A DNA stretch of 64,000 nucleotides, from NCBI GenBank assembly GCA_963815215.1, contig CAWFFU010000010.1, positions 160,001 through 224,000 on the forward strand. The letters are read 5' to 3'. Each line of letters starts with the position of its first letter. The first letter of the stretch is position 1. This DNA is from an uncultured Trueperaceae bacterium (lineage in GTDB: Bacteria; Deinococcota; Deinococci; Deinococcales; Trueperaceae). The position numbers and the translations under genes were made by a program. The notes under the pieces are model-generated. The model was given only the letters and a program-made list of their open reading frames with translations, searched no databases and was not told the origin of the DNA. Of this stretch, positions 2,876 to 57,207 are shown piece by piece.

Positions 2876-4600
2876 TCAGGCCCGGTCCGGCGTCCGGTCG
2901 CTCGGGCCGGTCCGGCGGGCGCGCAGGCGGTTGGCGAGCGCCAGCCGCAACTCGCCCCACGCTCCCACCGGCGAGTCGGCGATGGCCACGGCCTCCAGCG
3001 CTCTCAGCACCCCGACGCCGGGAGGGTGGGCCAGGTAGCGCGGCTCCCAGTCGGGATGGAACTTGCTCTTGAACACGTGCAGGCCCTTGAAGTTGTACAG
3101 GGCGTTGCCGCGCTCGAAGACCGTCGCGAGCGCGCGCTCGGTGAGCGGCGCCCGCGCCGAGGCGTCGAGCCCGCTCAGCGCCGACAGGCCGAGGTCCGCC
3201 CGCTCCACCCCTTGCTCGCGCAAGCGTTCCAGGAGCCGCACGAACAGGAACAGCATGGTCTCGGAGGGCGCGCCGTCGACGAAGCGCATGAGGTCGACCG
3301 CCAGCCCGGAGCGGCCGTACTCGGGGATGAGGTTCACGAACGCCTGCACCGCGGCGTCGGGTCCTTCCACGGTGACCACCGGGCAGCCGGCGATGTAGGC
3401 CTCGTCGTAGCGGCCCAGCGAGAAGTCCTTCTCGGAGGTACGCCGGCTCCGCAGCCACGCCGCGGACACGGCGGCCAGGGCGTGCAGGCGTTCGGGCGGT
3501 TGCGGCGGGTCGTGCCACACCACCCGGTACCCCTCCCGGTCCATCCGGTTCACGCCGGCGCGCAGGTTCTTGTTGCGGGCACCGGAGAGGGTGAACGACG
3601 CCAGCGCGACGACCGCCTGCTGGCCGATGAGGGTGGTCTGCAGGCCGGCGGCCCGGTAGTGCGCCCGGGCGTCGGGCCGTACCTGGTAGAAGACCGGTCG
3701 CCAGGCGCGCTCCCGGCAGAAGCTCACGAACGCGGCGGCCGCGGCGGCGGCGTCCTCGTCCGGGCCGATCGGGTCGCCCAGCGCCAGCCCGACGTTGCCG
3801 ACCGGCTTGTAGGCGACGACCGATCCGCCTGGGGTGAACAGGTACTGCTTGTTGCCCAGCAGGGCGATGTGGGCCAGGCTGGAGCGACCGTGCGCATCGA
3901 CGATGGCCTGCGCAGCCCGGCGCTCCGGCTCGCCGGCGCGGTCGCGTTCCACCACCGGCCGCAGGGCCATCACCACGGCGGTTCCGAGGCTGGCCGCCGC
4001 CAGCAGGTAGATGCTGTCGAGGAAGAAGTGCGCCAGCCGCGTGTGCGGCAGGGGAGGGGCGCCGAAGGTGAACATCGAGACGGTGGCCGACAGTGCCTGC
4101 GGGAGGCTCAGCCGCAGGTGGAACTCGCGGTCGAGTGCGTCGTAGCCGAGGGTGCCGTAGAGCAGCGTCACGAACACCGCCAACGCCAGCACGCGCAGCG
4201 CCATGCGCGCCGTCGGGTGGTCGTGGCGCGCCACGAACTGGTGCCGGCCCAGCAACAACAGGCCGAGCATCAGCAGGCTGACGGCGGCCGCCTCGAGCTC
4301 GAGCCCCTTGAGCAAGTTGGCCAGCGTGCCCAGGCTCAGTACCGCCACGCTCAACCACCAGGCGTTGCGTTGCCGTCGTGCCAGCCCGCGCGCCAGGACC
4401 AGCAGGGCGAAGCCTGCCAGGCCGGCGGCGAGACGGCTGGCGGCGCGGTACTCGAACGGGACCACGGCCCGTAGCAGGTCGAGGCGTTCGGGCACGACGG
4501 CCTTGGCCGCCGACCAGATGTCGACCAGACCCACCGCGAACACCAGCAGCACCGCCAGCCGCACCCACCCGCCGGCGGCGAGGTGAAGGCCCCGCCTCAC
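2876..4600 (-). CDS. MprF/LysX-like aminoacyl-phospholipid synthase (DUF2156 domain, short membrane region)
   Basis: About 6 hydrophobic segments, then LALGDPIG, EKDFSLG, VDLMR, YNFKGLHVFKSKFHPDWEPRYL. Confidence 0.88.
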   Translation of the reverse strand: MRRGLHLAAGGWVRLAVLLVFAVGLVDIWSAAKAVVPERLDLLRAVVPFEYRAASRLAAGLAGFALLVLARGLARRQRNAWWLSVAVLSLGTLANLLKGLELEAAAVSLLMLGLLLLGRHQFVARHDHPTARMALRVLALAVFVTLLYGTLGYDALDREFHLRLSLPQALSATVSMFTFGAPPLPHTRLAHFFLDSIYLLAAASLGTAVVMALRPVVERDRAGEPERRAAQAIVDAHGRSSLAHIALLGNKQYLFTPGGSVVAYKPVGNVGLALGDPIGPDEDAAAAAAAFVSFCRERAWRPVFYQVRPDARAHYRAAGLQTTLIGQQAVVALASFTLSGARNKNLRAGVNRMDREGYRVVWHDPPQPPERLHALAAVSAAWLRSRRTSEKDFSLGRYDEAYIAGCPVVTVEGPDAAVQAFVNLIPEYGRSGLAVDLMRFVDGAPSETMLFLFVRLLERLREQGVERADLGLSALSGLDASARAPLTERALATVFERGNALYNFKGLHVFKSKFHPDWEPRYLAHPPGVGVLRALEAVAIADSPVGAWGELRLALANRLRARRTGPSDRTPDRA

Positions 4601-4648
4601 GGTGCTCGCCTCACGGTGCTCGCCTCACGATGTTCGCCTCACGGTGCC
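4593..4648. repeat. 4 x 14-bp tandem repeat at the gene junction
   Basis: cgcctcacggtgct x2, cgcctcacgatgtt, cgcctcacggtgcc; each unit carries GTGA on the minus strand. Confidence 0.95.
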
Positions 4649-5298
4649 TGCCTCGCGCCGCGGCGCGCGCGCGCACCCAGCAGCCAGCCGAGCGCGCCGC
4701 CGTAGACGACCGTGAAGAGGTGCTCGGCGCCGGCGTTGACGTCGCGCCCCGGCACGCCATGCGCCGTCGCCGCGGCGAGCCAGCCCACCGCCGTGACGAC
4801 CGCGAAGGCGGGCACAAGCCAGCGCCAGCGCGGCGTCATCGCCAGGGCCAGCGCCAGCGCCCCGAAGTAGCCGGCCGACGCGCCGACGTCGCGAGCGTTG
4901 CGTACCAGCCCAGCGGTGGGCGGCAGCACGTAGAGTAGCGCCAGCGTCAGGAACGACAGCACGTGTAGTCCCAGGAACGCCAGGGCCGCCCACCAGCTGC
5001 CCGCTCGGCGTTCGAGCAGGCCCACCCCGAGGCCGGTCAGGGCCAGCGCCTGCAGCAGGCTCCAGGGGTCGGTGGTGAACCAGGCGGCGCCGAGGAGGCG
5101 CAGTAGATCCAGCGAGAGTCCGTCGGTCGGTCGGAATCCGGCATCGTGGATCACGTAGCGCGGCACCGCGTGCCAGGCGCTGCCGGTCAGCAGGCCGACC
5201 ACGACGAGCACGAGGAGCAACGTCAGCGTGACGGGATAGCGCCGTAGGCCGCGGAGCCTGGGAGGGGTACGAGAGGAGGGTAGGCCCGAGGACGCCAT
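4639..5298 (-). CDS. Rhomboid-like membrane protein
   Basis: YPVTLTLL start of first TM, multiple TM helices, DVGASAG (GxS) and AEH motifs; TATCCT 8 nt upstream of ATG 5298. Start uncertain. Confidence 0.7.
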   Translation of the reverse strand: MASSGLPSSRTPPRLRGLRRYPVTLTLLLVLVVVGLLTGSAWHAVPRYVIHDAGFRPTDGLSLDLLRLLGAAWFTTDPWSLLQALALTGLGVGLLERRAGSWWAALAFLGLHVLSFLTLALLYVLPPTAGLVRNARDVGASAGYFGALALALAMTPRWRWLVPAFAVVTAVGWLAAATAHGVPGRDVNAGAEHLFTVVYGGALGWLLGARARRGARQAP

Positions 5299-18216: not shown

Positions 18217-18800
18217 GCGTCCGTCCCTTCGTGGCCCGGATCGCGCTCCGCGCGCAGCCAGGCGAGTGCGTGGTTCTGGAGCTCCTCGGTACGCTCGGCG
18301 GCGACCACGATCACACCGTCGGCGTCGGCGAGGACCAGATCGCCGGGAGCGATGCTCACCCCCGCGACCTCCACGGCGACATCCAGCGATCCGGCCGAGG
18401 TCGGCTCGCCGCGGGCCGGCAGGCTGCCGCGGGCGCGGACGGCCAGGCCGGTGGCGGCGACCGCGCGAACATCGCGAACGTAGCCGTCGACGATCACGCC
18501 GGCTGCGCCGCGTTCCAGGGCGACGGCCGTGAGCCGGTCGCCCCATAGCGCGGCCTCGAGGCCGGCCGCCGCGATCACCAGGACCTCGCCGGGTCGCAGC
18601 GCCTGCGCGCCTGCGCGCACCGCCGCCAGGTCGCCGTCCGGCGCGGACACGGTGCGTGCGACGCCGGCGAAGTCCCCGCCGAGGTGCACCTGCCACACCG
18701 GACCGGTGGCGCGGGCCACGCCGCGGTCGCACAGCATGCAGCTGACGCCGCCGTCGGCCAGGGCCGGGGCGAGCAGGCGTGCGGCGTCGCCGGCGCTCAC
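18213..18800 (-). CDS. RraA / HMG-CHA aldolase family protein
   Basis: ALWGD, VDGYVRD, PGDLVLADADGVIVV. Confidence 0.88.
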   Translation of the reverse strand: MSAGDAARLLAPALADGGVSCMLCDRGVARATGPVWQVHLGGDFAGVARTVSAPDGDLAAVRAGAQALRPGEVLVIAAAGLEAALWGDRLTAVALERGAAGVIVDGYVRDVRAVAATGLAVRARGSLPARGEPTSAGSLDVAVEVAGVSIAPGDLVLADADGVIVVAAERTEELQNHALAWLRAERDPGHEGTDA

Positions 18801-18842
18801 GAGCGGCGCCTCACGAGCGGTAACTCACGAGGCGTGCCTCAC
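18796..18842. repeat. Degenerate 14-bp tandem repeat at the gene junction
   Basis: ctcacgagcggcgc, ctcacgagcggtaa, ctcacgaggcgtgc, ctcac; tcac at 18797, 18811, 18825, 18839. Confidence 0.9.
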
Positions 18843-37465: not shown

Positions 37466-38547
37466 GCATGGACCGACGCTCGCGAGAGTTGGAGCTGAGC
37501 GCCGCGCTGCGGCGCGAGATCGCCGGCCAGGAGGAGGCCGTCTCCAGGACGTTGCGCGACGGCGCACTGTCCTGGAGCCTCGACGCGCTGGCCGCCGACG
37601 TGCGGGCGTCGGGCGAGTTGCTGGTGAGCGGCATGGGCGCGTCGCTCCATGCCGGCATGATCCTGACGCAGCTACTGAGGGAGAAGGGGGTTCGCGCCTG
37701 GGCGTTGCCGACGTCGGAGCTGCTGCACTTCGGCGAGGCGCTGGCGGTCCGTCCGCTGCTGCTGATCAGCCAGTCGGGTGCCTCGGTGGAGATCGAGAGG
37801 ATGCTCGCGCGCGCCCGCGAGGGCGTGTACGGCCTGACCCTCGATGGCGCCAGCCCGCTCGGCCGCTTCGGGGCGGCGGTCGTTCCCGGCGGCCCCGAGC
37901 GCGCCTACGCGGCCACGCGCTCGTTCACGACCACGGTGGCGGCCCTCTACGCGCTGGCCGGGCGCCTGGGGGTGCAGGTCGACGTGCCGGGCCTGTCGGA
38001 GTCGGTCGGGCCGGCGCTCGGCCCGCTGCCGGAGCTGGAGGCCGCCTGCGCGACGCTGGAGGGCGCCGACGCCATCTTCGTGACCGGACGCGGTCCGCTC
38101 CACGGCCTGGCCGAGTACGTCGCGCTGCTGCTCATGGAGCTGGCCCGCCTACCGTGCGCCGCGTTGGAGGCGGCGCAGTTCCGGCACGGCCCCAAGGAGG
38201 CCGCGGGGGGGCGACTGGGCGTCCTGGCCCTCGCCGCGCAGGGCGAGGCCGGCGACCTGGTGCGGCGCTTCGCGTCGGAGCTGGCCGAGGCGGGCAGCCC
38301 CACGGTGCTGCTCGACGCCGGTGCGGCGCCGGCCGTGAGCGGTGCTGTGAGCGGTGCTGTGAGCGGTGCTGTGCCAGGTGCTGTGGGCGGCGCCGTGACG
38401 ACGATGGCCCTGCCCGCGGCGGACGGACTCGGCGCCGTGTTGCCCATGGCGGTGGCGGCGCAGCGACTGGCGGTGGCGCTGGCCGAGTCGCGTGGCATCG
38501 AGCCGGGGGTGCCGCTTCGCTCGGAGAAGGTGACGCGGGAGGAGTGA
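37462..38547 (+). CDS. Double SIS-domain protein (GlmS/FrlB-like isomerase or deglycase)
   Basis: SGMGAS, ISQSGAS, ATRSF, EAAQFRHGP, C-terminal KVT; no glutaminase domain. Confidence 0.85.
   Translation: MSMDRRSRELELSAALRREIAGQEEAVSRTLRDGALSWSLDALAADVRASGELLVSGMGASLHAGMILTQLLREKGVRAWALPTSELLHFGEALAVRPLLLISQSGASVEIERMLARAREGVYGLTLDGASPLGRFGAAVVPGGPERAYAATRSFTTTVAALYALAGRLGVQVDVPGLSESVGPALGPLPELEAACATLEGADAIFVTGRGPLHGLAEYVALLLMELARLPCAALEAAQFRHGPKEAAGGRLGVLALAAQGEAGDLVRRFASELAEAGSPTVLLDAGAAPAVSGAVSGAVSGAVPGAVGGAVTTMALPAADGLGAVLPMAVAAQRLAVALAESRGIEPGVPLRSEKVTREE
38332..38397 (+). repeat. In-frame 12-bp tandem repeat (AVSG) x5.5
   Basis: gctgtgagcggt units encoding AVSGAVSGAVSGAVPGAVGGAV. Confidence 0.9.
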
Positions 38548-38550
38548 GCG

Positions 38551-39507
38551 GTGGGGCGTGAGTTCGAGCAGGGTTCCGCCGCTGCGCCCGGACCCGGAGG
38601 CGGCAGACGTGGGCCGCTCCCCATCCACCTGATCGGCAACGTCAACGTCGACATCGTGATGGGACCCGTGGAACCCTGGCCGGAGCCCGGCACCGAGAGC
38701 ATCGTGGACCGTCAGGAGGTCCGGGTCGGCGGTGCGGCGGGGGTGGCGGCGATGGCGCTGCAGGCGCTTGGCACGCACTTCCGGTTGCACGCACGCATCG
38801 GCGACGACGCGTTCGCGGCGTTCGTGCGCCGCGAGCTGGGGCCGGCCGGCGGGCAACTCGAGCGGGTACGGGCCGGGACGGCGGTCTCCGTGGGGCTGAG
38901 CCACCCGGACGGTGAACGTACCTTCGTCACCCACCTCGGGCACCTTGCCGAGCTCGACTTGGACGCGATCGCCGCAGCGCTTGAGCGCGCCGGGGCGGGG
39001 CTGGTGGTGGTGTGCGGCTACTTCCTGCTGCCGCCGCTGCGGCACGGTGGAGGGCTCGAGCTGATGCGGCGCGCCCGCGGGGCGGGGCACCGGGTCCTGT
39101 TCGATAGCGGCTGGCCGAGCGAGGGCTTCACGGAGCCGGTACGCCTCGAGCTGGATGCATTGTTGCCGTGGATCGACGTGCTCCTGCCGAACGAGGCCGA
39201 GGCTCGCGCCTGGTCGTCGAAGGGCGACCTGCTGGAGGCCCTGGACTGGCTTCAGCGGGACGGCGCCCGCGTGGTGGTCAAGCGCGGCGCACTGGGTGCA
39301 AGCTGGGTGCGCGACGGCGGGCTCGAGACGTGCCGGGCGCCGCGCGTGCCCGTCGCCGACAGCGTGGGCGCGGGTGACTGCTTCAACGCGGCGTACGTCG
39401 CCGCGCTCGCCCGCGGCGCGGCGAACGCGGCGGCCGTCGACTCCGCCGTGCGGTACGCCGCCGACGTCGTCGGGCGGCGACCCCGGCACTACGGGCGACC
39501 GGGCTAG
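38551..39507 (+). CDS. PfkB-family carbohydrate kinase
   Basis: VGGAAG, PNEAE, VVKRGALG, DSVGAGDCF. Confidence 0.92.
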   Translation: MGREFEQGSAAAPGPGGGRRGPLPIHLIGNVNVDIVMGPVEPWPEPGTESIVDRQEVRVGGAAGVAAMALQALGTHFRLHARIGDDAFAAFVRRELGPAGGQLERVRAGTAVSVGLSHPDGERTFVTHLGHLAELDLDAIAAALERAGAGLVVVCGYFLLPPLRHGGGLELMRRARGAGHRVLFDSGWPSEGFTEPVRLELDALLPWIDVLLPNEAEARAWSSKGDLLEALDWLQRDGARVVVKRGALGASWVRDGGLETCRAPRVPVADSVGAGDCFNAAYVAALARGAANAAAVDSAVRYAADVVGRRPRHYGRPG

Positions 39508-40414: not shown

Positions 40415-40903
40415 TCAGACGAACTCGGGACGGTTCTCGACCTCGGGGGAGCCGTACAGCCGTTCGCGGGCGGCGCGCAACGCTTCTGCCGCCAGTCGGC
40501 AACCGCCGTGGGTCTGCTGCCACGCCTCCAGTCGATGCTGGATCGCGGCTTCGAGCTCGTCGGCGCGGCGGCGGTAGTGACCGCCGAACGAGAAGTGCTG
40601 GGTGGCTTTGAGATCGTCGCCGACCGACAGTGCGTCCTCGGCTACGCGGGTCTCCACCAGCGCGCGGTCGCGGAGTTGCATCATGCGGCGGTAGAGCGCG
40701 ACCAGCCGGTCGAAATCGGCGCCATGGGCGCCGCGCTCCGCCGTGCCGGCGCCGGTCCCAGCGCCGGTCCCAGCGCCGGTCCCAGCGCCGAGGTGGGCGT
40801 CGGACGCCGCGGGCCTGGGTCGGTGGAACCAGGGACGGGGACCGGGTCTCAAGAGGCGGCGCAGGCCTCGCGGCGGGTGGTTGAGTCGATCGAGATGCTT
40901 CAC
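40415..40903 (-). CDS. Hypothetical protein, helical C-terminal part
   Basis: GGAGG RBS 5 nt before GTG 40903; coding-like C-terminal half; no family recognised. Confidence 0.6.
   Translation of the reverse strand: MKHLDRLNHPPRGLRRLLRPGPRPWFHRPRPAASDAHLGAGTGAGTGAGTGAGTAERGAHGADFDRLVALYRRMMQLRDRALVETRVAEDALSVGDDLKATQHFSFGGHYRRRADELEAAIQHRLEAWQQTHGGCRLAAEALRAARERLYGSPEVENRPEFV
40749..40790. repeat. In-frame 12-bp tandem repeat (GAGT) x3.5
   Basis: gcgccggtccca x3 plus gcgccg. Confidence 0.92.
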
Positions 40904-55251: not shown

Positions 55252-57207
55252 TCAGCCGGCGAGGAACGGCACCTGCCAGTACACCAGGAAAGGCAGGAAC
55301 AGCGCCGCCGCGATCGCCACCACCACCGCCACCACGGTGCGCGGCGCGCGCGTGCTACGGCGCACCAGCAAGGTCAGGACCGCAAGGGCGACGGCCAGGA
55401 CGCCGCTCAGTGCCGAGAGCGCCCTCAGACCGGCTGCGAGCGGCGGCAGCGACAGGCCGTGGGGGTGGTAGAGCCCGAGTAGGAAGCCGATCGCCACCGC
55501 CATGCCCGCTAGCAGCGCCAGGTCCACCAGACTGACGAGCGCCTGGGTGACGCGGAGCAATGAGGCGGCGCGGCTCGCCGGCGCGTCGCTCGCTTCCGGG
55601 CGCGTGGCCGCTGTTCGGAGTGCGCTTGCTCCTCGGCGCGTGTCCGGCTCGCGCCGGCCGCCGATCGCGTCGGGCCGCCGGCGACGAGGCAGCACGCTCA
55701 ACAGCAGACCCTCGCCGAACGCGATCAGGAAGAACACGGCGGCGCCGAGCTGCACCCAGGGGCTGGCGTACCAGGGGGGCGGCCGGTCGCTGCTGGTGGG
55801 CAGCAACAGCGACCGGTCCGCGGCGGGACCGCGCGCCGTGCTCGAGAGCGGGCTCGCCCCGGCAGCGGCCGGCAGGGGCGCTGCCGGCGCCGTCGGAGCG
55901 GTCGTCCCGGCGGTCGTTGCGGTCGTCGCCGCCACCAGCGCCAGGGGGGAGGGCGCTGTGCCGACCGCTGTGCCTACCGCTGTGCCGCCCGCGCTGGCGA
56001 GGAGCGCGCCGCCTGGAGCCGCCGGGGCCAGGCTGCGGACCACGGTCGTGGTCCACCCCACCACCAGCGAGCGGTAGGTGGGGTCGGCGGCCCGGCGGGC
56101 GTTGGCGAGTGCGCTAGCGGAATCGCCGCCGACGCCTGCGCCGTCATGCCCCTGGTTCTGGCGCCCCAGCACGCCGACGTGATCCAGGGGCTGGTCGCGG
56201 TGCTGCGCGGCCTGCAGCAGCGCCACCGTGGGTTTGACGCCGGGGGCGTTGGGGTCGAGGTCGTCGTACACCAGCAGGGTCGGCGCCCTGGCGCGCTTCA
56301 GAGCGTCGGCCGGTGTGTTGTAGGGGTCGTCCTTCAGGAATCCGAGCTGGCTATGCGGCAACAGCGCGGCCAGCACCGGACGGGCGCCCACCAGCAGCCG
56401 CACTCCGCGCATGGCGGCGTCCGCGGCAGCCGAGGAGAAGCCCCTGGCGCGCACGACGTCGCCGGTGCGCCAGATCTCCTCCTGGCCCAACGGAGCGGCC
56501 GAGGTGTTGAGCAGGATCAGGAAGGCGACGTCGGCGTGCTCTCCCACGAAGGGAGCCAGCCAGGCTCCCTGGCCGACGCCCCAGACGCCCACCCGCGAGG
56601 GGTCGACGTCCGCCTGCCGACGCACCGCCGCGACGGCCGCCACCGCGTCGCCGACCTCGTCGTTGAGGTCCAGGGTGCTGCGCCAGTCGCCGGTCGAGGC
56701 GCCCGTCCCGCGCTTGTCGTAGGCGAAGGCGGCGACGCCGTGGGACGCGAACAGTCGGGCGTCGGCGGCGGCCTGGTCCCGGCCCGCGGCGCCGCGTCCC
56801 GGCAGGAGCACCACCGCGGGGAAGGGGCCCGTACCGGCGGGCAGCAGCAGCGTTCCGGCGAGCGTGACGGCGCCGTTGTGCACGGACAGGTCCCGCGCCA
56901 CGGGGGGACCGACCGGCACCGCGGCGGGAGACGCAACGGCGGGAGACGCTACGGCGGGGGCGGAGCGCGCTGAGGGGTCGTTGGCGGCCCCGCCGCTCGT
57001 GAGCGCCGGGACGTCCACCGCGGCGAAGGGGTCGGAGGCCGGGAGCCGATCCAGTCCCGTCCGGCCCGCGGCAGCCCGGAGCGGTAGGTTCGCGCCCAGG
57101 GCCCAGCCGAGTCCCAGCGCGATCGTCAGGACGGCGGCGGCGGCACGCCGACGTCTTGACGGGGCACGTCGGCGTGGGAGCGGGTTCCGAGAGTTGGCAA
57201 GACGCAA
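55252..57207 (-). CDS. Membrane-anchored alpha/beta hydrolase-fold protein lacking the nucleophile Ser
   Basis: LAGTLLLP, GPFPAVVL, YDKRGTGAS, GVWGVGQG; N-terminal TM, Ala/Pro/Thr linker, about 4 C-terminal TM; TTG start after GGGAGG. Confidence 0.75.
   Translation of the reverse strand: MRLANSRNPLPRRRAPSRRRRAAAAVLTIALGLGWALGANLPLRAAAGRTGLDRLPASDPFAAVDVPALTSGGAANDPSARSAPAVASPAVASPAAVPVGPPVARDLSVHNGAVTLAGTLLLPAGTGPFPAVVLLPGRGAAGRDQAAADARLFASHGVAAFAYDKRGTGASTGDWRSTLDLNDEVGDAVAAVAAVRRQADVDPSRVGVWGVGQGAWLAPFVGEHADVAFLILLNTSAAPLGQEEIWRTGDVVRARGFSSAAADAAMRGVRLLVGARPVLAALLPHSQLGFLKDDPYNTPADALKRARAPTLLVYDDLDPNAPGVKPTVALLQAAQHRDQPLDHVGVLGRQNQGHDGAGVGGDSASALANARRAADPTYRSLVVGWTTTVVRSLAPAAPGGALLASAGGTAVGTAVGTAPSPLALVAATTATTAGTTAPTAPAAPLPAAAGASPLSSTARGPAADRSLLLPTSSDRPPPWYASPWVQLGAAVFFLIAFGEGLLLSVLPRRRRPDAIGGRREPDTRRGASALRTAATRPEASDAPASRAASLLRVTQALVSLVDLALLAGMAVAIGFLLGLYHPHGLSLPPLAAGLRALSALSGVLAVALAVLTLLVRRSTRAPRTVVAVVVAIAAALFLPFLVYWQVPFLAG

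What the first reader, a model, noticed from the sequence alone, without database searches (positions are those of the whole stretch)
4597..4642. Stop-start relay 1: three 5-codon mini-ORFs chained by GTGA overlaps every 14 nt
Seen (minus strand): the rhomboid-like TGA overlaps a GTG, then GTG AGG CGA ACA TCG TGA, GTG AGG CGA GCA CCG TGA (twice), each TGA overlapping the next GTG, and the fourth GTG starts the MprF-like gene. A 14-nt (3n-1) period puts every start in frame with the next stop, and GAGG in each unit lies 8 nt before the next GTG (SD spacing). Known: NTGA overlaps mediate termination-reinitiation. Inference: a ribosome relay that preserves or tunes coupling, with repeat number possibly setting downstream expression.
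Basis: partly seen in the sequence, partly recalled or inferred. Interest (0 to 1): 0.7.

Follow-up and report, generated by a model that had tools for sequence, protein, structure and literature searches.

The report
Duplicated stop/start junction forming mini-ORF chain
The 14-base piece of DNA in which one gene's stop codon overlaps the next gene's start codon has been copied head to tail, making a chain of three tiny reading frames between two membrane-protein genes; it is a young, copy-variable repeat, but repeats and gaps of this frame-closing kind recur in this bacterial genus more often than chance allows.

Summary
On the minus strand, 4642-4597 reads GTGA-N10 three times and then GTGA. 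The first TGA stops a weakly rhomboid-like ORF. The last GTG starts an MprF C-terminal-domain gene. Between them lie three closed 5-codon ORFs (MRRTS, MRRAP, MRRAP), each with GAGG 8 nt before the next GTG.

It is a 14-bp tandem duplication of an ancestral single RTGA overlap. Six same-genus genomes keep the single overlap, one has three units, and a metagenome contig lacks exactly 14 nt. The genome (Trueperaceae-like, 70% GC) is full of unique 11-15-nt tandem repeats.

Arrays that cover a start codon are mostly 14-mers (7/25 non-genic arrays) and never 13-mers (0/23). RTGA chains favour 3n-1 periods (36 loci against 10 across six genomes).

On my own crude gene calls, mini-ORFs opened at stop-overlapping starts end exactly on the next gene's start twice as often as in a CTGA control (79/324 against 59/498). 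This repeated in a same-genus genome. In another genus it was not significant.

Best reading: a slippage product that survives a frame-closure filter and probably passes ribosomes on by serial termination-reinitiation. Tuning by copy number is untested. An earlier report of this scan reached the same verdict for the sister array at 18797-18842.

The parts
4639..5220 (-). Upstream gene. It encodes a multi-pass membrane protein that is weakly rhomboid-like. The longest ORF runs to 5517. Its stop TGA is at 4641-4639.
   Evidence: ORF list. My codon-usage call gives 4639..5220 with score 75. Pfam Rhomboid PF01694 scores E=0.026, below the cut-off. The C-terminus ...AEHLFTVVYGG... is conserved in same-genus genomes and always ends on the junction TGA.
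4643..4656 (-). Proto-unit GCGAGGCAGGCACC. These are the last codons of the upstream gene and match the repeat unit at 11 of 14 positions. Its GAGG (4654-4651) lies 8 nt before the first GTG. GAGGC recurs 14 nt apart, which gives microhomology for slippage.
   Evidence: Read. Tandem Repeats Finder extends the array to 4647 at period 14 and to 4654 at period 28.
4597..4642 (-). The array: four GTGA at a 14-nt period. That is three extra copies of the stop/start overlap plus the functional last one.
4625..4642 (-). Mini-ORF 1: GTG AGG CGA ACA TCG TGA (MRRTS). Its GTG overlaps the upstream stop.
4611..4628 (-). Mini-ORF 2: GTG AGG CGA GCA CCG TGA (MRRAP).
   Evidence: read directly.
4597..4614 (-). 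Mini-ORF 3: GTG AGG CGA GCA CCG TGA (MRRAP). Its TGA overlaps the start of the downstream gene.
   Evidence: read directly.
2876..4600 (-). Downstream gene of 574 aa: an N-terminal membrane region plus the phosphatidylglycerol lysyltransferase C-terminal domain (MprF/LysX-like). The start GTG is at 4600-4598.
   Evidence: PF09924 at 1.7e-77 and PF16995 at 2.2e-5. Orthologues place the start at the same point.
18797..18842 (-). Sister array with the same architecture and a different unit: GTGAGGCACGCCTC GTGAGTTACCGCTC GTGAGGCGCCGCTC GTGA. It lies between an M32 carboxypeptidase gene and an RraA-like gene.
   Evidence: Pfam PF02074 at 6e-171 and PF03737 at 6e-34.

Best explanation
This is a young, copy-number-variable 14-bp tandem duplication of a '-4' stop/start overlap (GTGA). 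It lies between two co-directional genes of a Trueperaceae-like bacterium. Replication slippage, seeded by GAGGC microhomology 14 nt apart, copied the junction. Each unit carries GTGA and the period is 3n-1. Every extra GTG therefore opens a 5-codon frame that the next unit's TGA closes. Both flanking proteins stay unchanged, no ribosome can enter the downstream gene out of frame, and no N-terminal extension is made. This genus makes 11-15-nt tandem duplications at a high rate in non-coding DNA. Where such a duplication covers a start codon, mainly the frame-closing variants persist. Shown here: the structure, the copy variation, the ancestral state, and the period and closure enrichments. Inferred: ribosomes that terminate at each TGA re-initiate at the overlapping GTG (helped here by GAGG 8 nt upstream), so coupling between the two genes survives a 38-nt gap with some loss at each step. 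The array is a tolerated by-product that passed a translational filter. It is not a purpose-built regulator.
For: Structure.

Ancestral state: G003, G004, G005 and G002 and G007 and G001 each have one RTGA where the homologous upstream ORF stops and the MprF-like ORF starts. G008, whose protein is 96% identical, has TTGA+GTGA+GTGA, one unit fewer.

Natural allele: one metagenome contig (run X5) spans the locus with exactly 14 nt left out at 4593. The contig of run X1 matches the 4-unit form.

Mutational background: 1365 TRF rows, with periods 11-15 dominating. Among 509 non-redundant arrays of at least 2.5 copies, purely intergenic arrays number 15, 26, 18, 12 and 27 at periods 11 to 15. Units differ at every locus.

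Filter: arrays covering a called start codon are 7/25 non-genic arrays at period 14, 0/23 at period 13 and 1/19 at period 11. Fisher tests give 14 against 13 p=0.0099 and 14 against 11+13 p=0.003. Stop-only arrays show no difference, 6/25 against 5/23.

RTGA chains of 3 or more units, as distinct loci in G000 plus five relatives: 36 at periods 11/14/17 against 10 at 10/13/16. Against intergenic arrays (28 against 24) this gives p=0.019.

Exact junction relays in G000: period 14 has three, plus one single-step case. Periods 11 and 17 have one each. Period 13 has none. Three more lie in relatives.

Other junctions tell the same story. The C12:44719 array has 4, 3 and 3 RTGA in G000, G008 and G003, and a single RTGA in G002, G005 and G007. 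At C8:68830-68886 the frame-closed bridges are 4x14, 4x14, 2x14, 14, 14 and 20 nt long across six genomes.

SD plausibility: a canonical anti-SD tail is present. 1127/2668 confident genes have an SD core upstream, against 402/2668 in a control window. The GAGG spacer mode is 7 nt and the range 4-10 nt.

Nothing else was found in the array: no RNA structure (z=0.45), no promoter or terminator, no Rfam family.
Against: There is no expression or translation data at all: no RNA run holds the locus. Re-initiation on the mini-ORFs is therefore pure inference.

Gene calls and start sites are my own crude codon-usage calls, and the thresholds were chosen after looking at the data.

Counts are small and the genomes are kin, so some loci are orthologous. 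G000 alone gives 13 against 4 chains, which is not significant against the intergenic baseline (p=0.15).

The 3n-1 rule does not explain why period 14 beats period 11: 11 chains against 1, although intergenic arrays run 12 against 15.

The reversed-pattern control also rises at period 14 in the relatives: 24 forward matches against 6 control, and at period 13, 7 against 2. Part of the period-14 excess may therefore be mutational.

Within TRF-defined arrays, TGA positions are not significantly better conserved than spacers (15/102 against 60/328). That test is confounded by proto-units inside upstream genes.
Confidence: 0.65

Rival explanations
1. Adaptive rheostat. The chain is kept because it relays ribosomes, and unit number is selected to set the ratio of downstream to upstream protein. 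Each hop loses a fixed fraction of ribosomes, so copy-number change by slippage gives heritable, reversible tuning.
For: Closure is statistically favoured. Upstream [AGT]TGA stops followed by a 1-200-nt gap lead through ORF hops exactly onto the called downstream start in 79/324 cases, against 59/498 for CTGA stops (OR 2.4, p=3.9e-6). In G003 the figures are 35/130 against 20/188 (p=2.5e-4). A version independent of start calls gives 101/471 against 96/725 in G000 and 49/178 against 29/282 in G003. One junction keeps a closed bridge in all six genomes examined, although its length varies (56, 56, 28, 14, 14, 20 nt) and its spacers have diverged. The relay 2 junction in G003 is a single 19-codon bridging ORF of 56 nt. 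Unit number does differ between close strains.
Against: At this locus the array is recent: 6 of 8 same-genus genomes work with a plain overlap. Nothing links unit number to any phenotype. Copy change does not switch either gene on or off. The downstream start has its own GAGG and could initiate independently. SD-like motifs are absent from many arrays. The closure effect was not significant in another genus: G020 gave 27/116 against 23/166, p=0.057, with no 14-nt chains in 1.2 Mb.
Confidence: 0.15
2. Pure neutral junk. The array is a slippage product with no translational consequence. The mini-ORFs are not translated, the downstream gene initiates on its own SD, and the excess of period 14 reflects mutational bias or chance, not selection.
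For: The genome carries unique short tandem repeats all through its non-coding DNA. Several RTGA chains touch no gene end: 2 of 11 in G000 and 5 of 14 in relatives. The reversed-pattern control is also higher at period 14 than at 13 in relatives. TGA positions are not measurably more conserved than spacers inside arrays.
Against: It does not explain why arrays covering a start codon are 7/25 at period 14 and 0/23 at period 13, while stop-only arrays are equal. It does not explain why closure depends on the single base before the upstream TGA, A/G/T against C. It does not explain why one junction keeps closure through length changes in six genomes.
Confidence: 0.15
3. The repeats are binding sites (iterons or operator repeats) for a DNA- or RNA-binding protein, or part of a structured regulatory RNA. 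On this view the stop/start content is incidental.
For: GTGAG-type units recur in arrays of periods 12-15. [quoted passage not shown]
Against: Unit sequences differ from locus to locus beyond RTGA. Folding is no better than shuffles (z=0.45). There is no Rfam match at the array. Orthologues without the repeat keep the same gene pair.
Confidence: 0.05

Closest known systems
-4 (NTGA) stop/start overlap with translational coupling by termination-reinitiation or ribosome scanning
   Same: Every link of the chain is an NTGA overlap, the commonest overlap motif in prokaryotes (review PMC12548453, passages read). In G000, 365 of 2010 co-directional neighbour pairs on my calls have it. The ancestral junction here is one such overlap.
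   Different: Here the overlap is repeated four times in series, with non-coding 5-codon ORFs between two real genes. I found no description of serial overlaps of this kind in the searches. Coupling itself was not measured.
MIRUs, mycobacterial interspersed repetitive units (Supply et al. 1997; known to me through the review PMC12548453, and from recall)
   Same: Both are intergenic tandem repeats inside operons. Their internal ORFs overlap the flanking stop and start at -4 spacing, so the insertion barely disturbs expression. Both are copy-variable between strains (that point is recalled).
   Different: MIRUs are a dispersed, sequence-related family of much longer units (tens of bases, recalled) and are thought to be mobile. 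Here each locus has its own 14-nt unit, made locally from the junction itself.
[quoted passage not shown]
   Same: [quoted passage not shown] Sources: the review's reference list, and the search-listing abstract of PMC13255528, 'Boosting gene translation by a short ORF'.
   Different: Those are single engineered or leader ORFs with their own strong RBS. Here natural mini-ORFs are themselves started by overlap with the upstream gene's stop, and they are chained.
TAACTGA heptamer direct repeats upstream of start codons in Beggiatoaceae, Cyanobacteria and Bacteroidetes (PMC4679880, abstract read)
   Same: Both are short stop-codon-bearing direct repeats that sit next to start codons at many loci of a genome, with a suggested role in translation.
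   Different: Those repeats share a single 7-nt sequence genome-wide, carry no start codon, and are proposed to be a protein-binding site. Here the units are locus-specific, 14 nt long, and start/stop overlapping.
Simple-sequence contingency loci (phase variation by slippage)
   Same: Both are slippage-prone tandem repeats whose copy number differs between close strains.
   Different: Copy change here cannot shift the frame of either gene or alter promoter spacing, so no on/off switch results.

Membership tests
NTGA (-4) overlap coupled gene pair | [quoted passage not shown] | tested here: met
   Four consecutive GTGA. The first is the real upstream stop and the last is the real downstream start.
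NTGA (-4) overlap coupled gene pair | Both ORFs lie on one transcript. | tested here: inconclusive
   No promoter-like or terminator-like site in 4300-5000, and the gene pair is conserved in 8 same-genus genomes. No RNA data exist.
NTGA (-4) overlap coupled gene pair | Downstream translation depends on upstream translation. | not testable with these tools
   This needs reporters or ribosome profiling.
Variable-number tandem repeat made by slippage | Head-to-tail copies of one unit. | tested here: met
   TRF: period 14, 3.9 copies, 90% matches, no indels.
Variable-number tandem repeat made by slippage | Copy number differs between close relatives, and a single-copy ancestral state exists. | tested here: met
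   G000 has 4 GTGA. G008 has 3. The X5 contig lacks exactly 14 nt. Six genomes have one RTGA.
MIRU-like dispersed intergenic repeat family | Copies at different loci share a sequence (one family). | tested here: not met
   Units at the 11 period-14 chains of G000 share only RTGA.
MIRU-like dispersed intergenic repeat family | An internal ORF overlaps the flanking stop and start codons. | tested here: met
Phase-variable contingency locus | A change in repeat number shifts the frame of, or silences, a gene. | tested here: not met
   The 3-unit and 4-unit alleles leave both flanking ORFs intact.

The most novel reading that the evidence does not exclude
In this Trueperaceae-like genus, gaps between co-transcribed genes are systematically bridged by non-coding mini-ORFs. 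Each mini-ORF has a start that overlaps the upstream stop and a stop that overlaps the downstream start. Bridges are either single (5-185 nt) or chains of 3n-1 tandem units. On this reading they form a selected 'ribosome relay' that extends -4 coupling across real intergenic distances, and slippage of the 14-nt units makes relay length evolvable. The array at 4597-4642 would be the youngest visible member of that system.
Probability: 0.3. Interest if true: 0.75.

Novelty: new variant of a known kind. Interest (0 to 1): 0.5.

Why it matters
If the frame-closure bias holds up with proper annotation, it is genomic evidence that start codons overlapping stop codons are actually used after termination. 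Otherwise selection could not see where the frames they open end. The mechanism of translational coupling is still disputed: RNA unfolding against 30S or 70S scanning (review PMC12548453, passages read). Natural alleles with 1, 3 and 4 overlaps in series at the same junction form a ready-made allelic series for measuring per-hop re-initiation efficiency. For genome annotation, these arrays explain apparent 'gaps' between operon genes and warn against calling the internal GTGs as gene starts. For this one locus taken alone, the finding is an ordinary young tandem repeat.

Tried and rejected
RNA evidence: no RNA holder is listed for the locus, and only Logan contigs could be laid. Contigs of runs X2 and X4 break inside the array.

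RNA fold of 4560-4690(-): -68.7 kcal/mol, z=0.45, no better than shuffles.

Promoter and terminator scan: none found. Rfam: the only hit is P26 at 4246-4293, E=0.18, outside the array and below the cut-off.

Family-level pattern search over 61 genomes: not usable. The group is heterogeneous. Many genomes carry heptamer repeats that also match period 14, and control counts are as high as or higher than the signal. No claim is drawn from it. That call included one genome flagged unpublished (G057), and nothing here rests on it.

Orthologue test of gap-length changes, G000 against G003. Of 32 G000 junctions that 'arrive', 18 also arrive in G003. Gap changes were 3n in 9 cases and non-3n in 6, against 28 and 60 for CTGA non-arriving junctions. 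This is suggestive but confounded by differing start calls. NTGA non-arriving junctions also show 27 against 18.

Conservation of TGA against spacer positions inside TRF arrays: 15/102 against 60/328 mismatches, not significant, and confounded by proto-units inside genes.

Replicate of the closure test in another genus (G020, 1.2 Mb): same direction, p=0.057.

Orthologues of the period-11 relay (C7:12020): the junction is not conserved in the five genomes searched.

Structure prediction, complex prediction and protein homology searches were not used, because the question is not about a protein.
Full report
WHAT IS THERE

On the minus strand, 4642..4597 reads GTGAGGCGAACATC GTGAGGCGAGCACC GTGAGGCGAGCACC GTGA. 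The first TGA (4641-4639) ends an ORF that my codon-usage caller places at 4639..5220; the longest ORF runs to 5517. The last GTG (4600-4598) begins a 574-aa ORF at 2876..4600. Between them are three closed frames of five sense codons each: MRRTS, MRRAP, MRRAP (for the first, direct reading for the others). GAGG lies 8 nt before each GTG, including the first. There it belongs to the proto-unit GCGAGGCAGGCACC (4656-4643), which is the upstream gene's last codons.

Tandem Repeats Finder reports 4593..4647 as period 14, 3.9 copies, 90% matches. The four-unit pattern RTGA-N10 x3-RTGA occurs twice in the window and in none of 100 dinucleotide shuffles. The second site is 18797-18842.

The downstream protein carries the phosphatidylglycerol lysyltransferase C-terminal domain (PF09924, 1.7e-77). 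The upstream protein matches Rhomboid only weakly (E=0.026, below the cut-off).

WHERE IT COMES FROM

The window is G000:C10:160001-224000 of a 3.32-Mb, 70% GC assembly. Record titles of the closest relatives read Deinococcales and Trueperaceae.

The MprF-like gene was found in 7 of 9 other same-genus genomes. I read the junction in those seven.
- G003, G004, G005 and G002 and G007 and G001 have one RTGA. There the homologous upstream ORF stops and the MprF-like ORF starts.
- G008, whose protein is 96% identical, has TTGAGGCGAACATC GTGAGGCGAACACC GTGA, one unit fewer.
- A contig of metagenome run X5 (about 95% identical) spans the locus with exactly 14 nt left out at 4593 and the same G-to-T change in the first unit. 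The contig of run X1 is identical to the 4-unit form.

The array is therefore a recent, lineage-specific, copy-variable duplication of an ordinary -4 overlap. GAGGC occurs 14 nt apart around the ancestral junction (an SD-like GAGG upstream, and GTGAGG at the start). That is the kind of microhomology that seeds slippage. This last step is inference.

THE GENOMIC BACKGROUND

The genome is unusually rich in short tandem repeats with locus-specific units. TRF gives 1365 rows, with periods 11, 12, 13, 14 and 15 at 62, 331, 88, 73 and 284 rows. After removing redundancy, 509 arrays have at least 2.5 copies. The table classifies those at periods 11-15 against my crude gene calls (2875 genes, 88% coverage).

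| Period | Genic | Intergenic | Stop only | Start only | Stop + start |
|---|---|---|---|---|---|
| 11 | 4 | 15 | 3 | 0 | 1 |
| 12 | 111 | 26 | 3 | 3 | 0 |
| 13 | 8 | 18 | 5 | 0 | 0 |
| 14 | 11 | 12 | 6 | 3 | 4 |
| 15 | 83 | 27 | 7 | 6 | 2 |

Arrays that cover only a stop codon are spread evenly over periods. Arrays that cover a start codon are 7 of 25 non-genic arrays at period 14, against 0 of 23 at period 13 and 1 of 19 at period 11. Fisher tests give 14 against 13 p=0.0099, and 14 against 11+13 p=0.003.

This is what a translational filter predicts.
- Duplicating a start codon with a 3n+1 period creates starts that read out of frame across the true start.
- A 3n period creates N-terminal extensions.
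- A 3n-1 period with RTGA creates frames that close themselves.

In G000, maximal RTGA chains of 3 or more units number 11 at period 14, of which 6 have 4 or more units. At period 13 there are 5 (4 distinct, because two contig ends are identical). At period 11 there is 1, at 16 none, at 17 one, and at the other non-3n periods from 8 to 29 between 0 and 2. At 3n periods there are 5-20, which is the coding background.

In five same-genus genomes the distinct loci are as follows, with reversed-pattern control matches of 6 at period 14 and 2 at period 13.

| Period | 10 | 11 | 13 | 14 | 16 | 17 |
|---|---|---|---|---|---|---|
| Distinct loci | 0 | 6 | 2 | 14 | 4 | 3 |

Pooled, there are 36 loci at 3n-1 periods and 10 at 3n+1. 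Against the intergenic-array baseline (28 against 24) this gives p=0.019. G000 alone is not significant (p=0.15). These genomes are kin and some loci are orthologous, so the p-values overstate the evidence.

In G000, exact junction relays are loci where coding potential ends at the first TGA and begins at the last RTG. They are this locus, 18797-18842 and C12:44719-44764 at period 14. A one-step case lies at C14:49827. C7:12020 is a relay at period 11 and C3:781240 at period 17. Period 13 has none. Three of the 14 period-14 loci in relatives are also exact relays. Three more touch only a stop, three only a start, and five neither.

OTHER JUNCTIONS

Relay 2 in G008 (99% identical flanks) also has four GTGA, but with different inner units. 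In G003 the same junction is ATGA + 52 nt + GTGA, a single 19-codon frame that still opens on the upstream stop and closes on the downstream start.

The C12 array has 4, 3 and 3 RTGA in G000, G008 and G003, with diverged units. G002, G005 and G007 have a single RTGA there.

The most telling case is G000:C8:68830-68886.
- G000 and G008 have TGA every 14 nt five times, with spacers only 40-50% alike.
- G003 has three TGA and G005 two, both at period 14.
- G002 has a TAG and an ATGA 14 nt apart.
- G007 has GTGA...GTGA 20 nt apart, again a 3n-1 distance.
Length and sequence change at this junction, but closure does not.

A BROADER PATTERN SEEN IN PASSING

On my gene calls, 365 of 2010 co-directional neighbour pairs have the -4 overlap. 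I then took pairs separated by 1-200 nt in which both the upstream stop and the called downstream start sit in [AGT]TGA. The distance D between the two motifs falls in classes D mod 3 = 0, 1, 2 as 28, 29 and 75. Class 2 is the one in which the frame opened on the upstream stop closes on the downstream start. With CTGA upstream, which has no start codon, the classes are 53, 57 and 60.

Following ORFs hop by hop, 79 of 324 [AGT]TGA stops lead exactly onto the downstream start, against 59 of 498 CTGA stops (OR 2.4, p=3.9e-6). Most of the 75 single bridges (65) have no inner stop, and their codon usage looks non-coding. Their lengths spread from 5 to 185 nt, so they are not decayed 14-mers.

| Test | [AGT]TGA stops | CTGA stops | p |
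|---|---|---|---|
| G000, hop test | 79/324 | 59/498 | 3.9e-6 |
| G003, 1.2 Mb, same genus | 35/130 | 20/188 | 2.5e-4 |
| G000, independent of start calls | 101/471 | 96/725 | 2e-4 |
| G003, independent of start calls | 49/178 | 29/282 | 3e-6 |
| G020, 1.2 Mb, another genus | 27/116 | 23/166 | 0.057 |

The G020 sample also held no 14-nt chains.

Caveats:
- The gene calls are crude.
- My start rule could deplete class 0, but it cannot affect class 1.
- An unexplained excess of class 2 also exists among pairs with neither motif (163, 177, 225).
- G003 is not evolutionarily independent of G000.

HOW IT MOST LIKELY WORKS

Shown: slippage origin, copy variation, intact flanking ORFs, and frame closure at every step. 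An SD-like GAGG also sits at a spacing this organism uses. It has the anti-SD tail, and 1127 of 2668 confident genes have an SD core upstream, against 402 of 2668 in a control window. GAGG spacers run 4-10 nt.

Inferred: a ribosome finishing the upstream gene at TGA re-initiates on the overlapping GTG, as proposed for -4 overlaps. It then translates five codons, terminates, re-initiates, and reaches the true start after three hops. The review of coupling states that efficiency falls with intergenic distance and that the mechanism (unfolding against scanning) is unsettled (PMC12548453, passages read). A chain of overlaps would replace a 38-nt gap with four zero-distance hand-overs. At the least, it prevents re-initiating ribosomes from running out of frame over the downstream start.

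Each hop is presumably less than fully efficient, so unit number could scale downstream output. Nothing here tests that.

From recall, not from any call: proline before UGA (the CCG TGA of the upstream gene and of units 2 and 3) is a slow-terminating context in E. coli. That could lengthen dwell time at the overlap.

RIVALS

- A purpose-built rheostat is not excluded. At this locus it is contradicted by the array's recent origin and by six relatives that work without it.
- Pure neutral junk does not explain the contrast between start-covering and stop-covering arrays, the dependence of closure on the base before the TGA, or the C8 junction.
- A protein-binding or structured-RNA role finds no support.

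WHAT IS KNOWN

The closest precedents are the NTGA overlap itself and MIRUs. MIRUs are repeats inside mycobacterial operons whose ORFs couple at -4 to the gene they precede (review passage; the original paper was not seen). Other precedents are leader mini-ORF and bicistronic designs, and the TAACTGA heptamer repeats next to start codons in Beggiatoaceae (abstract).

This case differs from MIRUs in three ways: the units are locus-specific, they are 14 nt long, and they are made from the junction itself. Four full-text searches returned no description of serial overlap chains or of a genome-wide closure bias. That shows only that those searches did not find one.

An earlier report of this scan on the sister array (e1-7547283) reached the same verdict. 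I read it after forming my own, and I re-examined that locus independently.

VERDICT

The locus is a young, copy-variable duplicated stop/start junction, which makes it a new variant of known kinds. Its 3n-1 design is probably what allowed it to persist. The wider closure bias in this genus is the more interesting lead and needs proper annotation and experiments.

Noticed in passing
whole genome G000 (window examples: 38335-38398 period 12, 40749-40790 period 12, 56922-56958 period 15): The genome is unusually rich in short tandem repeats of period 11-15, each with a locus-specific unit. TRF gives 1365 rows. About 100 non-redundant arrays of at least 2.5 copies lie in purely intergenic DNA, which is about 12% of the genome. 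The cause of this slippage-prone state is unknown.
   Followed up: partly
whole genome G000, 1.2 Mb of G003 and 1.2 Mb of G020: Frames opened by a start codon overlapping an upstream TGA stop end exactly on the next gene's start about twice as often as frames opened at CTGA: 79/324 against 59/498. This was replicated in the same genus and was not significant in another genus.
   Followed up: partly
G000:C8:68830-68886 and its orthologues (L213-L217): This junction has TGA every 14 nt five times, with diverged spacers. Across six genomes of the genus, frame-closed bridges of 56, 56, 28, 14, 14 and 20 nt occupy the same junction.
   Followed up: yes
whole genome G000: Gaps between co-directional genes show an excess of lengths equal to 1 mod 3 (D classes 348, 344, 473 for gaps of 1-200 nt). 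The excess persists where neither gene end sits in NTGA (163, 177, 225). It is unexplained and may be an artefact of my start calls.
   Followed up: no
G000:C8:163739-164302: About 560 bases of non-genic DNA hold eight overlapping arrays of period 15 or 30 with different units, several starting with GTGAG.
   Followed up: no
G000:C14:17230-17295: An intergenic 13-nt array, GTGACGGGGTGTA x5. Its TAGTG overlaps give 8-codon frames that span two units. This is a different way of closing frames with a 3n+1 period.
   Followed up: no
G000:C6:608-637 and G000:C9:152263-152292: Identical sequence at two contig ends, probably one repeat or one locus assembled twice. I counted it once.
   Followed up: no
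window 38530-38561 (G000:C10:198530-198561): A third 14-nt RTGA chain in the window, with diverged units (GTGACGCGGGAGGA GTGAGCGGTGGGGC GTGA). The upstream gene stops at the second TGA, and the next called gene starts 4 nt after that stop.
   Followed up: partly
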